Source of the DNA: Raja brachyura
Taxonomy: Eukaryota
Length of the DNA: 64,000 nt
Assembly: GCA_963514005.1 (NCBI GenBank)
Contig: OY740812.1
Location: 30,876,001 to 30,940,000 of the forward strand
Direction: 5' to 3'
How positions within the stretch are numbered: position 1 is the first letter of the stretch; every line of letters starts with the position of its first letter. A program made the position numbers. Positions 42,001-51,000 of the stretch are shown here, piece after piece.

Positions 42001-45000
42001 TCTTCAGAATAATGAATGAGGAGAGAATAAGATCTGTCTTGTGGTGGAATCTCATTTAAGGTGTGGGAGGTTTTTGAGAATGATCTATTGACTGTGGAGG
42101 CTAGAAGGGTAAAATTTGAAGACATGGCAAACTCCAAGTTTTTTGATGGGAGGAAAGGGAGTTAGAGTGGGTTGCTGGAGATGGAGGAGGAGCACTTGAG
42201 AGCCCTGACAACCATGGTGAAGAGGAAACCATGGTAAAGATAAAAGGACAGTGCCTTTTCAATGTTGAGGGTGAAAATCTTATTATCAGATCAAGTACAA
42301 TGAAGATGGAGAATCTGGGGGTACTAAATAATGTCCCCACAGGAAGCATGATTGGGAGGAGATGTAATTGAGACAGTGTTGGGAATTTGTGCACTTATAA
42401 TGGATATTGGTTGCCTACTTACAGTATTCCTTCGGATGTGATGACAAGGGAAGAAACAGGATGGACCATTTTGAGTTGAGAGTAAGGTTGAAATTGACAG
42501 TAAAGGTGATAAGATTTTCAAATTCTCTGATGAAGGCGGAAGGGTGGAAATTGGAAGCTGTGACTAGTAGTAGGATTCCATTGGAGGTGGCAAAAATGTC
42601 AGAGGATTATATTTTGTATGTGATGGCTGATGAAATGGAAGGTAAGGACTATGAGGACCCTGTCCCTGTTGCGACTTGGGGGATGGGGAGCAAGGGCGAA
42701 GCTGCGAGGTACTGAGGAGACAAGTGTGAGGGCCTCATCTATGATGGAAGAGTGGAACCCCCGTTCCCCAAAGAATGAGGATATCTCAGATGTCCTGATA
42801 TGGAACACCTCATCTTGGGTGCAGATGCGGCGTAGACGGAGGAATTGGGAGTAGGGGATAGAGTCTTTGCAGGAAGCAGGGTGGAAAGAAGTGTTGTCAA
42901 GATAGTTGTGGGCATCAGTGGGTTTGTAATAGACGTCAGTCGATGGTCTATCTCCTGCGATGGAGTCTGCTAGATCAAGAAATGGGAGAGAGGTGTCGGG
43001 TGGACCAAGTGAATTTGAGTGCAGGATGGCAATTAGTGATGAAGGTAATGAAGTCTATGAGATCTGCATGCGTGCAGGAAGTAGAACAGATGCAGTCGTC
43101 AATGTAACTGAGATAGAGTTCGGGGGTAAGGCCAGTGTACGGCTGGAACAAGGATTGTTCAACGTACCGTACAAAGAGGCAGGCACGGCTGAGACTCATG
43201 TGGGTGCCCATAGCTATGCCTTAGACTTGGAGGATGTGGGAGGAGTTGAAGGAGAAGTTGTTAAGGGTGAGGATCAGCTCCGCTAGGCGGAGGAGAGTTA
43301 GTAGAGAGAAATTGGCTGGTTCTGTGGTTGAGGAAGAAACGGAGGGGTTTAAGGCCTTCCTGGTGGGGGGTGGAGGTGTAGAGTGACTGACCGTTCATAG
43401 TAAAGATGAGGGAGTGGGTGCCCAGAAAGCGGAAGGCATTAAAGAGATGAATAGCATTTGAGGTATCTTGTACATAGGTCAGGAGAGATTGGACCAGGTG
43501 TATAGGGTGGAATTGAGGTATGTGGAAATGATTTCAGTGGGACAGGAGCAGGCGGAAACAATGGGTCTGCCAGGGCACCTTGTATCTTATTGCAGCTAAA
43601 GAGTAACTTTACTGGTGGAATTTTGTGTTGTTGATGGAGTTTCATAAAATTTAAGAAGTTAAGATGTGCATTGATTCAAGTTTTCAAGATATGAAATAGA
43701 AATGAATGAATAGATAGTGGAGAACAGCCTCCACTGGGGGGGGGGCAAATCAAGTTATCAAATTGGGGAGCAAACCGCCAGGAGTGGTTAGGAAACATTT
43801 GTGGATGCTTAGGATGGTAAAAACTTGGAACTCGGCAAACAGCAATTGTTAATTTTAATTTCCCTTTAGAATTGCCACTGAAAAATGTAAATACATTGGA
43901 GTTTATGTGACTAGAAAATATACCTCTCTATTCCAAGCAAAATCTCCACCATTTATTACTAAATTAAATGCCCTTATTCAATTTTGGAAAACACTTCCTA
44001 TTTCCCTTATAGGTAGAGTAAATGCTACAAAGATGATTTTCCTCCCACAACTACTTTACCTATTTCAATCTATACCTATTTATCTCCCTAAAAGCTTTTT
44101 TAAAAAACTTGTCTCTGTGATTACAAACTTTATCTGGAATTATAAAACTCACAGAATTCACAAACGACATTTATGTAAACCTACAGAAAACAATGGATTG
44201 GCATTCCCCAATTTTATTTTCTAATACTGGGCAACTAATATTAAAAATTTAATCTACTGGATGGATGATACATGTCAACAAGTAAAATGGTTAAAAATGG
44301 AGAGGGAAGATTGTTCGCCTTTTAATATCGGCATGATTCTTCTTTCTCCAATACATCTGGGACTAGGGGAAAATAAATGGTCGGCATGGACTGGAAGGGC
44401 CGAGAAGACCTGTTTCCGTGCTGTAATTGTTATATGGTTATCTGAATAAATCAACGTATGAGAAAAATCCGATAATTCATGGCACCCTACGAATTTGGAA
44501 ACAGTTGAAATCAACTCTCAAATTGAGAAATTTTACTTCGGAGTCACGTGAGTGACTACGTGAAGACCCCGCCAGCACGCATACGTGACATATCGTCGAA
44601 TGCATTGCGAAGCAACAGGCAGGGAGGAGGGTCACTCCTCCGCCGGTAAGTTTAAAACGGACCTACAGGTGAGTATTTACTATCCTGAGGTCATTTTGCG
44701 GGCACTCTGTTGTGGTTTTTGTTACAGAGTACCCCACCATGGACAAGTCACGAACCAAGTCCAAACGGGCCGCTTCGAGACTGACTGCGGAGGACTGCAG
44801 GAACGCGGGCAGTCAGTAGTGGCCGACTTCTCCAGAGCTGCTTGTTGTTCAAACGGCAGCCCCCGACTTGCCGCCGCAACAGCCCGCAGGAGCACCTCGG
44901 ACTGGTGGCAAAGCCACCCAGAAGTCGGGAAAGCCCGTTGACTCGGCAGGGTCCGGGCTGGAAGATTCACCGCCCGCGGGAAGTGACGGCAGTCGATTAT

Positions 45001-48000: not shown

Positions 48001-51000
48001 TTGGAGTTCCTGGCAAGTATACATTTTGATGAAGGCTTGAATTATAGTGCCATCAACTGGCACTATAACTCAAATTAAATCCGAAGCTACGATGGGTGAG
48101 GTGGAGGGGGGGATGGGGTGAGGTGAGGTGGAGGGGAAGGGGCAAGGTATATCTCCACGTCTTCTTTTCTTATTTCTTTTTCTTTCCGCTGCACTGCTTT
48201 GGTAGCTTAGGGTTGTTCGTTTCCATTTTATCTCTTCATTTTTTCTTTTCTTCTTTTCTTGCTTTCCCTTTTTTCTCTTTTCCCTTTAAAAAAAAATGTA
48301 GGTTATAAGGTTAAAAATGAAGCTGTACGATAATTGTATATTTGTCGATGCCGAGCGTTTTATCCTTATACAATTGCTTCTAATAATAATAAATAAATAA
48401 ATATATGAAATAGAAATTAATTAATAGATAGTGGGGAACAGCCTCCACTGGGGGTCCCAAATCAAGTTATCAAATTGGGGAGCAAACCGCCAGGAGTGAA
48501 GTTAGGAAACGCTTGTGGATGCTTAGGATGGTAAAAACTTGGAACTCGGCAAACAGCAATTGTTAATTTTAAACTGGGCGATTTTGACAATAAAATGTAT
48601 TAAGATGTATGTGGAAAAAACAGATATATAACATTGTCACATATCAGATGGTGAAGTATTTAGCTACCCATTTAAACCATTATCACAGGTGTGGCACAGT
48701 GGCACAGCTGATAGCAAGCCTGACTTTAAGTGCTCTCTGTGTGGAGTTTGTACATTATCCTTGTGACCATGTCGGTTTCCTCGGATCCTCACACATCCCA
48801 AAGCTGTGCGTATTTGTGGGTTAATTGGCCTGTGTAAATTGCCCCTAGTGTATAGAGAGTGGATGTGAAAGTGGGATAAGATGGAACTGATTGCTAGTTG
48901 GCGTGGACTCGGTGGGCCATTTCCATGCCGTATCTTTCAATCAATCACAGCCCAGTTTTCCTTATTTTTTAAATGCTGAAAAATAAAACCTTTATATCTC
49001 TCTGACTGATCTTTTGTAATGGATTAAAAGTATTGCTAGAGCAATTACTGACAAGTTTAAAAACCCAGACATACTTTCAACTTCTTTATTTGCAAGTGTA
49101 GGTTTATTTTAATATGACTTATACTTCTCAAGCAAACTGACAGATGTATTAAAACATGGAGCTATCAAGCCATAAAATACAAGAGCTAATCGATAGTTAC
49201 TTTTTTTAAACTATTGTCTTTCTGGCAAACATTTTGCCTGATGGAAATTTATCTTTATAAATCTCTGTCATTTCTTCTACAACGCACTAAGCAGGAGAAT
49301 AGCACCAAACTTTCATTCCACCCTAGTTTTAACTGAACAGCTTCTTAAAACGTCCTCCTCTATTGTGTTTTCCTAAATTACTCTGTTGTTTGTAATTCTT
49401 TCTTCCTTTTCCATTTAGTGTGGTGTTCCCGAGAGTTGCAATGATCGCACAATGATTGTTTTGGAATGATCTAAAGAAATGAAAGGTACAATCTATGTCC
49501 AAGTTCTATCTTCTTTAAAGAACATCACTACAGGTTAGAATCGACAAAGTAGTGCAATTTACCATCTGCATTAAACCACATCCCATCTCCTTTACCCTAT
49601 CTCATAGCACAATACACAACAGTCCCAAAGAACTGAAGATGCTAGTGTTTATCATTAATGTTTAGTGTTTTCTGAGTCATTCGTAACTGTCACTGTATGT
49701 CATGTTGTTACTTGTGGGTGGAGCACCAAGGCAAATTCCTTGTATGTGAATACTTTGTCAATAAACTTACTTTCTTACTTACTTACTTACTTACGTACTT
49801 ACGTACTTACTTACATCGAAGATAGACACAAATTTCTGGACTGAGGAAGTCTGAAGAAGGGTCTCGACCCGAAACGTCACCCATTCCTTCTCACCAGAGA
49901 TGCTGCCTGTCCCGCCGAGTTACTCCAGCATTTTGTGTCTACGCATAACAGTCCTAACATGGTCTGCTAGGAAGTACACTTGAAATATACTTGTTTGATG
50001 TTACAGCTAAATTGTGGCATGAAAAAGCCAACATTTATTTCTCCTATTTGAGGAATTTCACTGTGCTAACAGGTCTAATCTCTATTGCCTTGTACAGGAA
50101 ATAATTCGGGATCTTCTGATGAAGCCCTTTATATCAGGTAGATCTCATCACAACAAGGTTCACCTCTGTATATGCGATCCTTCATGTTTTTTTGAAACTA
50201 GGAACAACATCAAGTTCTTTGTAAACCAATAATTTTCTTTCAAATAGCTTCCATAATTGTCTGCTGTTAATGTGCATCTTGATTTGAATTTTATTTGAGC
50301 TGTTTGTAAATTAAACTATGTTTGAAATGCTTCTTTGCAAAGTTGTAAGCAAGGTCAGAATTGTGAGAAATTCCATACAAAGCATTTTATCGGGATGCAT
50401 CACAGCATGGTTTGACAACATGGTTTCAAGACTGCAAGAAATTGCAGAGAATTGTGGAAGCAGCCCCGACCACCACACAAACCAACCTCCCTTCCATTGA
50501 CGCCATCTATACTTCACGCTGCCTCGGCAAGGCCACCAACACAATCAAGGATGAGTTTCACTCCTCTTCATCTTCACCACCCTCATCAGCCAAGAGGTAC
50601 AGAAGTGTGAAAATGCATATTTTTGAATCCAGAGACAGTTTTGGTTGTCAATATCTCCCAGTTTAAAATTAACAATTGCTGTTTGCCGACTTCCAAGCTT
50701 TTACCATCCTAAGCATCCATAAGTGTTTCCTAACTTCACTCCTGGAGGTTTGCTCTCTGATTTCAGAACTTGATTTGGGACCCCCAGCGGAGGCTGGTCC
50801 CCACTATCTTTGCATTAATTTCTGTTTAATACCTTGAAAACTTGAATCGATGCACATTGTAACTTCTTCAATTTTAGGAAACTCCACCAACAACACCAAA
50901 ATCCATCAGTAACGCTACTCTATAGCAGGAGTGCGATACCATGTGGAAATAAGCCCTTCCACCAAATCCACGATGACCATTGATGATCCATTCACAGTCC

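What the first reader, a model, noticed from the sequence alone, without database searches (positions are those of the whole stretch)
43689..48572. Second, different L1 also flanked by a very long (170-bp) duplication: a recurring long-TSD mechanism?
Seen: 43689-43858 and 48403-48572 bracket an L1 precisely (ORF2 begins at 43859; the TAA/TAAA tail ends at 48402). Its ORF2 peptide differs clearly from the 5894-7493 element, so the events are independent. Both L1s found in the window show >150-bp duplications, while short retroelements nearby show 11-15-bp TSDs. Inference: L1s of this lineage may routinely generate long target duplications, a source of local sequence duplication that I do not recognise as described.
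Basis: partly seen in the sequence, partly recalled or inferred. Interest (0 to 1): 0.72.

Follow-up and report, generated by a model that had tools for sequence, protein, structure and literature searches.

The report
Two L1 insertions with long duplications
Both L1 retrotransposon fragments in this shark-like genomic window are flanked by unusually long duplications of their insertion sites (about 170 and 271 bases), a rare L1 outcome already known from human cell work, so two cases cannot show it is routine here.

Summary
43689-43858 and 48403-48572 are direct repeats (8 mismatches in 168 aligned bases, two small indels). They abut an L1 ORF2 fragment on the left and a (TAA)3(TAAA)3 tail on the right.

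A third, inverted, uninterrupted copy of the same Penelope-like repeat (50645-50945) runs without a break across left flank, repeat and right flank. It acts as a paralogous empty site, so this is a true ~170-bp target-site duplication.

The insert is not a plain L1. Only about 580 bp is L1 ORF2. An 80-bp SINE/LINE tail with its own 5-bp duplication and a 3.5-kb truncated tyrosine-recombinase (DIRS-like) retroelement sit inside it, and about 930 bp of ORF2 is missing.

The other L1 (5894-7493) is clean and is flanked by 271/284-bp repeats. These are the only two L1 loci found, and they are divergent lineages.

Long L1 duplications above 100 bp are already described in human cell culture and in other LINE clades. 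The "routine in this lineage" claim rests on n=2 and could not be tested genome-wide here.

The parts
43689..43858 (.). Left copy of the ~170-bp target-site duplication of L1 insertion 2. It may start at 43686. It is part of a Penelope-like element that lies on the minus strand.
43859..44353 (+). L1 ORF2 fragment, part 1. It is 5'-truncated just after the RT palm and has one in-frame stop.
   Evidence: Human ORF2p residues 758-875, E about 1e-22. Residues 762-926 of a 1266-aa EN+RT relative (P0007), 58% identity.
44360..44439 (+). Nested 80-bp 5'-truncated SINE/LINE 3'-tail fragment, flanked by a 5-bp duplication ATCTG (44355-44359 and 44440-44444).
   Evidence: Aligns to the 3' ends of six other copies in the window (hits). 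Removing it plus one ATCTG restores the ORF2 frame and length against P0007.
44442..44528 (+). L1 ORF2 fragment, part 2. L1 similarity ends here.
   Evidence: Residues 930-955 of P0007; translation.
44529..48078 (+). 3'-truncated tyrosine-recombinase (DIRS-like) retroelement. It has a 358-aa ORF of unknown family (44820-45893), RT (46335-47015) and the recombinase N-terminus (47875-48057).
   Evidence: RVT_1 E 6e-11 and Phage_int_SAM_4 E 0.0038, below cut-off. 66% identity to residues 1-61 of P0074, a 312-aa protein carrying PF13495 and PF00589; residues 62-312 are absent from the window.
48079..48380 (+). Non-coding stretch: G-rich tract, CT-rich tract, A9, then unique sequence. Presumed remnant of the L1 3' UTR (inferred).
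   Evidence: Sequence; TRF; no L1 coding similarity (best E 0.13).
48381..48402 (+). (TAA)3(TAAA)3T tail that abuts the right duplication copy.
48403..48572 (.). Right copy of the ~170-bp target-site duplication.
50645..50945 (-). Third, uninterrupted paralogue of the target. It is the 5' part of a plus-strand Penelope-like copy, about 50645-53400. Read on the minus strand it is collinear with 43576-43858 and then 48573-48590.
   Evidence: RVT_1 and GIY-YIG are weak in the window. Relatives carry PF00078, PF28514, PF26215 and some PF01541.
42524..43688 (-). Remainder of the Penelope-like copy that received the L1. Its last 18 bp continue at 48573-48590.
   Evidence: 74% identity over 907 columns to 52884-51987.
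5623..5893 (.). Left copy of the 271-bp target-site duplication of L1 insertion 1.
5894..7493 (+). 5'-truncated L1 of a different lineage. It runs from the ORF2 thumb to the C-terminus and has a 3' UTR, AATAAA at 7467-7472 and an A10 tail at 7484-7493.
   Evidence: Human ORF2p residues 792-951, E 4e-18; tblastn; sequence.
7495..7778 (.). Right copy of the duplication of L1 insertion 1 (284 nt, with a 13-nt indel).

Best explanation
Two independent, 5'-truncated L1 copies from divergent lineages inserted by target-primed reverse transcription. In each case the second (top-strand) break lay far downstream of the first nick: about 170 nt for the insertion at 43859-48402 and about 271 nt for the one at 5894-7493. 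Fill-in of the long single-stranded overhangs duplicated the target on both sides. Both are members of the 'long TSD' class of L1 events.

Insertion 2 landed in the 5' part of a Penelope-like element. Either afterwards or in its source copy, three further changes occurred:
- an 80-bp SINE/LINE-tail insertion with a 5-bp duplication;
- a DIRS-like insertion;
- one internal deletion that removed the recombinase catalytic part together with about 930 bp of L1 ORF2.

Shown: the repeat structure, the junctions, the paralogous empty site, and the identity of the pieces. Inferred: target-primed reverse transcription, the distant second-strand break, the order of the nested events, and that 48079-48402 is the L1 3' end.
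For: - Both repeat pairs are far beyond chance (E 5.8e-67 and 1.5e-112).
- Of the 20 direct pairs of at least 100 nt lying within 10 kb, these two have the highest identity.
- Each pair is bounded on the left by in-frame L1 ORF2 and on the right by an A-rich tail, in the same orientation.
- The third copy at 50645-50945 is contiguous across left flank, repeat and right flank.
- The two flanking copies are each other's closest relatives: L-R 9 mismatches, L-third 22, R-third 19. In 16 columns L and R agree against the third copy, versus 10 and 3 for the other two groupings.
- Divergence of 4.8% in both pairs excludes a recent assembly duplication. It also places the L1 insertion after the Penelope-like copies diverged.
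- The nested 80-bp insertion restores the ORF2 frame when removed, so the L1 piece behaves as one formerly continuous element.
- Long duplications with 5'-truncated L1 are documented.
Against: - Only about 580 of the 4544 bp of insert 2 are recognisably L1.
- The last 324 bp have no demonstrable link to L1.
- No orthologous empty site could be examined.
- The first-nick sites resemble the L1 endonuclease consensus only loosely. The top strand reads TTTTC/AAGATA for insertion 2 and GAAGGA/ATGTTC for insertion 1. The consensus itself is recalled and printed in no call for L1.
- For insertion 1 there is no paralogue to prove the target was once contiguous.
Confidence: 0.78

Rival explanations
1. 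Insert 2 is not a retrotransposition event. It is a DNA-level templated insertion with flanking duplication, for example break-induced or template-switching repair that copied a 4.5-kb genomic mosaic of decayed L1, SINE tail and DIRS-like element into the Penelope-like copy.
For: The interior is a mosaic of three element types with an internal deletion. The right 324 bp cannot be tied to L1. A preprint proposes break-induced replication for large duplications at L1 sites (10.1101/2024.12.14.628481; passages).
Against: The insert ends in an A-rich (TAA/TAAA) tail on the side and strand expected for the L1 piece. The clean L1 at 5894-7493 shows the same architecture with AATAAA plus A10. Nested insertion followed by one deletion explains the mosaic.
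Confidence: 0.1
2. The two 170-bp copies are independent members of the Penelope-like repeat family that happen to flank the L1, and are not a duplication made at insertion.
For: The sequence belongs to a repeat family with at least three copies in the window.
Against: The copies end at exactly the same family positions as the insert boundaries. Together with their outer flanks they reconstitute one contiguous copy. They are closer to each other (9 differences) than to the third copy (19 and 22). The right-hand piece would have to be a 187-bp 5'-terminal fragment, which is atypical for a retroelement.
Confidence: 0.03
3. A tandem duplication existed before the L1 inserted exactly at its junction, or one target copy was moved to the other side of the L1 after insertion.
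For: Other local direct repeats exist in the window, for example 942-1093 vs 2151-2290 at 78% identity.
Against: This needs two coincident events at base-pair precision, and it needs them twice in 64 kb. No short duplication of the L1's own is seen at either site.
Confidence: 0.05
4. Assembly artefact: a collapsed or duplicated haplotype around the L1.
For: None specific.
Against: The copies differ at 4.8% of sites and by indels in both pairs. The window contains no N runs.
Confidence: 0.02

Closest known systems
Long target-site duplications (over 100 bp) of human L1 recovered in cultured cells (Gilbert 2002 and 2005, Symer 2002, as cited in PMC5223499 and PMC2912911)
   Same: A 5'-truncated L1 with an A-rich tail, flanked by a precise duplication of the target of 100 to several hundred bp. 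The duplication is attributed to a second-strand break far from the first nick (passages).
   Different: Here the cases are germline-fixed and old (4.8% diverged), in a non-mammalian, shark-like genome, and involve two divergent L1 lineages. In HeLa such events never exceeded 10% of recovered events. Here they are 2 of 2 L1 loci in the window.
L1 insertions in NER-deficient human cells (PMC5223499)
   Same: A host condition makes long duplications the majority outcome: 4 of 7, 21 of 23 and 22 of 28 inserts in three lines (passage cut off in the output). This shows that duplication length can be set by the host.
   Different: Those duplications are described as extremely large, in the size range of copy-number variants, with many tailless inserts. 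Here they are 170-271 bp and the tails are intact.
LINE lineages with characteristic long duplications: rotifer R9 (126 bp) and Chlamydomonas Dualen-4b (PMC9977147; passages)
   Same: A non-LTR retrotransposon produces target duplications well above 100 bp.
   Different: R9 is rDNA-specific (per the title of the paper cited), and the passage gives it one length, 126 bp. Dualen has two endonucleases. Here the lengths differ (170 vs 271 bp), the targets are unrelated, and the elements are L1-clade.
Canonical L1-clade duplication of 13-15 bp in human, cow, opossum and zebrafish (Ichiyanagi and Okada, as cited in PMC4245944)
   Same: The same clade and the same overall insertion architecture.
   Different: The duplications here are 11 to 20 times longer. 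Surveys such as PMC2912911 collected only 5-30-bp duplications, so long ones would have been missed.

Membership tests
L1-clade non-LTR retrotransposon copy | ORF2 homologous to L1 ORF2p | tested here: met
   E about 1e-22 to human ORF2p residues 758-875 and E 4e-18 to residues 792-951. 58% identity to a 1266-aa EN+RT relative.
L1-clade non-LTR retrotransposon copy | APE-type endonuclease and RT core present in the copy | not testable with these tools
   Both copies are 5'-truncated downstream of the RT palm. Only their full-length relatives carry PF03372 and PF00078.
Target-primed reverse transcription insertion | A-rich 3' tail that directly abuts a flanking direct repeat of the target | tested here: met
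   (TAA)3(TAAA)3 at 48381-48402 and A10 at 7484-7493, each followed by the right repeat copy.
Target-primed reverse transcription insertion | First nick at an L1 endonuclease-type site (TT/AAAA on the top strand; consensus recalled) | tested here: inconclusive
   TTTTC/AAGATA for insertion 2 is a loose match. GAAGGA/ATGTTC for insertion 1 is a poor match. The preference of these L1 lineages is unknown.
Target-primed reverse transcription insertion | Empty site shows a single, contiguous copy of the target | tested here: met
   Met only with a paralogue and only for insertion 2: 50645-50945 is contiguous across both flanks. No orthologous site was available.
Long-TSD class of L1 events (L-TSD over 20 bp, PMC4245944; over 100 bp, PMC5223499) | Duplication longer than 100 bp flanking an L1 insert | tested here: met
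   170 and 271/284 nt.
LINE lineage with a fixed long duplication (R9 type) | The same duplication length and target site at every insertion | tested here: not met
   170 vs 271 nt, with unrelated targets. The sample is only n=2, and the two are from different L1 lineages.
DIRS-like tyrosine-recombinase retrotransposon (interior of insert 2) | RT and tyrosine recombinase on one strand | tested here: met
   RVT_1 E 6e-11. The recombinase N-terminus is 66% identical to residues 1-61 of a 312-aa protein carrying PF00589. The catalytic domain itself is absent from the window.
DIRS-like tyrosine-recombinase retrotransposon (interior of insert 2) | Terminal repeats (inverted or split direct) typical of the order | not tested
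   The element is 3'-truncated and no second copy is available.
Penelope-like element (the target) | RT followed by a GIY-YIG endonuclease | tested here: inconclusive
   In the window, RVT_1 has E 1e-3 and GIY-YIG E 6e-4, both below the cut-offs. Relatives of 52358-53254 carry PF00078, PF28514 and PF26215, and some carry PF01541.

The most novel reading that the evidence does not exclude
In this cartilaginous-fish-like genome, L1 insertions of at least two divergent lineages are commonly completed by a second-strand break 150-300 nt from the first nick. On this reading a host-level property of insertion resolution, not one L1 family, makes L1 a regular source of 150-300-bp local duplications. 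Standard surveys that look only for duplications of 30 bp or less would have missed it.
Probability: 0.2. Interest if true: 0.65.

Novelty: new member of a known kind. Interest (0 to 1): 0.36.

Why it matters
If long duplications are merely rare outliers, this is a well-documented pair of examples of a known L1 side-product in a non-mammal, and no more than that.

If they are frequent in this genome, three things would follow:
[quoted passage not shown] How that break is made is an open question in L1 biology.
- L1 would be a steady source of 150-300-bp duplications that later invite recombination.
- Surveys that cap the duplication length would be shown to bias the picture.

The paralogous-empty-site argument used here also offers a way to validate long duplications inside repeats when no outgroup genome is at hand.

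Tried and rejected
Searches that gave nothing useful:
- Pfam gave nothing for either L1 fragment (0 families for 43859-44221 and 44225-44446; 0 for 5785-6726 and 6714-7334). L1 identity therefore rests on the PDB and protein searches.
- A PDB search of 6714-7334 found nothing.
- I looked for L1 coding remnants in 44526-48402 and in 48040-48420 with six full-length ORF2 relatives, 6 of the 73 returned, chosen for full length. Nothing was found at E<=1e-3, and the best hit was E 0.13.

Search for further L1 copies:
- Two searches found only the two loci.
- Three other RT fragments (33489-32601, 26943-26569, 56655-57524) are 24-31% identical to L1 RT. I took them for other clades and did not classify them formally.
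- The Pfam sweep covered 74 of the 94 ORFs of at least 90 aa. Nine of the remaining 20 were scanned, and 11 were not scanned.

Rejected ideas:
- The repeats as pseudo-LTRs of the Penelope-like element. The repeat is not found at that element's 3' end, and the interior is not Penelope-like.
- Multiple template switches during reverse transcription as the source of the mosaic. The 80-bp piece has its own 5-bp duplication and restores the reading frame when removed.

Literature:
- Searches found no report of long L1 duplications as a lineage-wide trait in fishes or cartilaginous fishes.
- For most hits I saw only listings and the starts of abstracts.
- Passages were read in PMC5223499, PMC2912911, PMC9977147, PMC2861651 (a reference-list hit only), PMC4245944, PMC1291365, 10.1101/2024.12.14.628481 and 10.64898/2026.06.26.733778.
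- No supplements were opened. Tables S1 and S2 of PMC5223499 may give exact lengths.
- That C. elegans RTE-1 has a duplication of about 200 bp is recalled only and was not confirmed by any search.

Structure prediction, complex prediction and RNA tools were not used because they do not bear on the question.
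Full report
**Provenance.** The window has no N runs. I take it for non-human. Its repeats are of the cartilaginous-fish type. The best named relatives of its Penelope-like ORF are from Chiloscyllium punctatum (62% and 59% identity), and the named relatives of its L1 are from teleosts. No spliced gene model was needed or built.

**1. The observation**
- The repeat finder and a self-BLAST of the window both recover the pair 43686-43858 / 48400-48572 (92.6% over 175 columns, E 5.8e-67).
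- The left copy is followed at 43859 by sequence whose translation matches human L1 ORF2p residues 758-875 (E about 1e-22).
- The right copy is preceded by (TAA)3(TAAA)3T at 48381-48402.
- The second L1 is also as described. 5894-7493 matches ORF2p residues 792-951 (E 4e-18). It ends with AATAAA (7467-7472) and A10 (7484-7493).
- It is flanked by 5623-5893 / 7495-7778 (E 1.5e-112): 258 matches, 13 mismatches, one 13-nt indel, p = 4.8%.
- Among the 250 self-similarity pairs, 20 are direct, at least 100 nt long and within 10 kb. The two L1-flanking pairs have the highest identity of these 20. The rest are a tandem array at 54.4-55.0 kb or copies of multi-copy families.

**2. A paralogous empty site**
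- The 170-bp sequence is not unique. It lies in a repeat whose third copy sits inverted at 50645-50945.
- That copy aligns to 43576-43858 (84%) and to 48404-48590 (90%).
- In the three-way alignment it runs without interruption from the left flank, through the 170 bp, into the right flank (ACTGGG.GAT.TTGACAA).
- The two flanking copies are closer to each other (9 mismatches) than to the third copy (22 and 19). In 16 columns they agree against it, versus 10 and 3 for the other groupings.
- So one contiguous family member was split, and 170 bp of it is now present twice. The alternative of two unrelated family fragments does not fit.
- The family looks Penelope-like. It is 74% identical over 907 columns between 42524-43422 and 52884-51987. 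RVT_1 and GIY-YIG matches in the window are weak. Relatives carry PF00078, PF28514 and PF26215, and some carry PF01541.

**3. What lies between the repeats.** It is not a plain L1.
- Six full-length ORF2 relatives (6 of the 73) align to 43859-44353 (residues 762-926 of P0007, 58%) and again to 44448-44525 (residues 930-955). They align nowhere else in 44526-48402.
- The 80 bp between those two stretches (44360-44439) match the 3' ends of a SINE/LINE family present six more times in the window. They are bracketed by ATCTG at 44355-44359 and 44440-44444.
- Removing this insert and one ATCTG restores the ORF2 frame and spacing against P0007. It is therefore a nested insertion with a 5-bp duplication.
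- From about 44529 a different element follows on the same strand. It has a 358-aa ORF without a Pfam match and an RT (RVT_1, E 6e-11).
- At 47875-48057 it has the first 61 residues of a tyrosine recombinase, 66% identical to P0074, a 312-aa protein with PF13495 and PF00589. Residues 62-312 are absent from the window.
- So this is a 3'-truncated DIRS-like element.
- The final 324 bp (48079-48402) are a G-rich tract, CT-rich tracts, A9, unique sequence and the tail. They have no coding similarity to L1 (best E 0.13).
- About 930 bp of ORF2 (residues 956-1266) are missing.
- The simplest history is this. A 5'-truncated L1 acquired a SINE-tail insertion and a DIRS-like insertion. One deletion then removed the 3' part of the DIRS-like element together with the ORF2 C-terminus.
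- Whether these changes happened at this site or already in the source copy cannot be told from one window.
- Because the tail-to-duplication junction is intact to the base, I infer that the tail is the original 3' end of the inserted element.

**4. Mechanism**
- Both loci have the signature of target-primed reverse transcription: an A-rich tail on one side, a 5'-truncated sense-strand L1 on the other, and a precise direct duplication of the target.
- The duplication length equals the stagger between the first nick and the second-strand break, here about 170 and about 271 nt. This is inference from the established model, not something shown here.
- The first-nick sites match the L1 endonuclease consensus only loosely (TTTTC/AAGATA and GAAGGA/ATGTTC). 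The consensus is recalled.
- The top-strand break of insertion 2 lies at AATTTTAA|AC, which itself resembles an endonuclease site.
- The top-strand break of insertion 1 lies at the end of a C/T-rich tract of about 100 nt.
- These two points are observations only. I draw no conclusion from them.
- The two L1s share 37% identity over 97 residues. If long duplications are systematic here, the cause is more likely host-level or ancient than specific to one L1 family.
- Both pairs are 4.8% diverged, so the two events are of similar age. The Penelope-like paralogues differ by 11-13%, so that family spread earlier.

**5. Comparison with the literature** (passages only unless stated)
- The L1-clade duplication peaks at 13-15 bp in human, cow, opossum and zebrafish, and the length is held to depend on the LINE species (PMC4245944).
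- Duplications above 100 bp occur with human L1 in HeLa in at most 10% of recovered events. They are the majority in NER-deficient lines: 4 of 7, 21 of 23 and 22 of 28 (PMC5223499).
- In HeLa they go with 5'-truncated inserts. Genome surveys that collect only 5-30-bp duplications cannot see them (PMC2912911).
- Rotifer R9 makes 126-bp duplications and Chlamydomonas Dualen-4b makes longer ones (PMC9977147).
- A preprint treats 1-10-kb tandem duplications at L1 sites as large target duplications and suggests break-induced replication (10.1101/2024.12.14.628481).
- Another preprint reports lineage-specific shifts in L1-associated duplication length across vertebrates. The passages seen contain no statement about long duplications in cartilaginous fishes (10.64898/2026.06.26.733778).
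- My searches found no report of long L1 duplications as a regular feature of any fish or shark genome.
- This is a limited, open-access library. The key paper by Ichiyanagi and Okada was seen only as cited by others.

**6. Verdict**
- The repeats are real, and they are target-site duplications of two independent L1 insertions.
- The mechanism is a known, usually rare, outcome of L1 integration.
- The new points are the host group, the fixation in the germline, the use of a paralogue as an empty site, and the fact that both L1 loci found in the window (2 of 2) show it.
- At a frequency of 10% or less, two of two would be unlikely. But the window was singled out after the fact, and n = 2.
It could not be run because no eukaryotic genome collection was available, and the closed collections were not used.
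- I rate this a new member of a known kind, of moderate interest. I give about 0.2 probability that long duplications are a common mode of L1 insertion in this genome.

Noticed in passing
window 44360-44439 (flanking ATCTG at 44355-44359 and 44440-44444): An 80-bp 5'-truncated SINE/LINE 3'-tail sits inside the L1 ORF2 with a 5-bp target duplication. This is a short-duplication contrast within the same locus.
   Followed up: yes
window 44529-48078: A DIRS-like tyrosine-recombinase retroelement with fairly long open frames (358, 169, 227, 106, 109 and 90 aa). It is cut off after recombinase residue 61. The 358-aa ORF at 44820-45893 has no Pfam match.
   Followed up: partly
window 942-1093 and 2151-2290: A single-pair direct repeat (78% identity, 152 columns) brackets about 1.06 kb made of SINE-like pieces. 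There is no L1 similarity and no A-rich tail. It may be an older local duplication of another origin.
   Followed up: partly
window 13601-13978 (+): An open frame with immunoglobulin-domain matches (Ig_3 E 3.9e-9, V-set E 2.2e-8). It is probably an exon of a host gene.
   Followed up: no
window 54231-54397 and 54417-55027: Two adjacent tandem arrays: a 30-bp unit in 5.6 copies, and a 41-bp unit in 15.2 copies at 87% match.
   Followed up: no
window 4372-4642, 16938-17331, 18680-19045, 27656-28010, 31684-32079, 61720-61960, 62205-62536: A seven-copy family shares one end, (CATAGAAA)n followed by ATAGGTGCAGGAGGAGGCCATTCGGCCC, and has variable other ends. It looks like 5'-truncated LINE 3' ends read on the opposite strand, with an 8-mer repeat tail.
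   Followed up: partly
window 33489-32601 (-), 26943-26569 (-), 56655-57524 (+), 37776-38072 (+): Further reverse-transcriptase fragments, only 24-31% identical to L1 RT (RVT_1 E 7e-30 and 6e-17), and an ALKBH8_N-type match (E 6e-15). I presume these are other LINE clades; none is flanked by a long direct repeat.
   Followed up: partly
window 5623-5893 / 7495-7778 and 43689-43858 / 48403-48572: The two duplication pairs have the same divergence (13 of 271 and 8 of 168 sites, both 4.8%). The two L1s are also truncated within about 35 codons of each other in ORF2 (human residues 758 and 792). This may be coincidence or a shared episode.
   Followed up: partly
window 10100-11950: A GC-rich stretch (56% in 10001-12000) is packed with direct and inverted copies of a 91-96-nt unit at up to 98% identity (for example 11147-11242 vs 11658-11753).
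   Followed up: no
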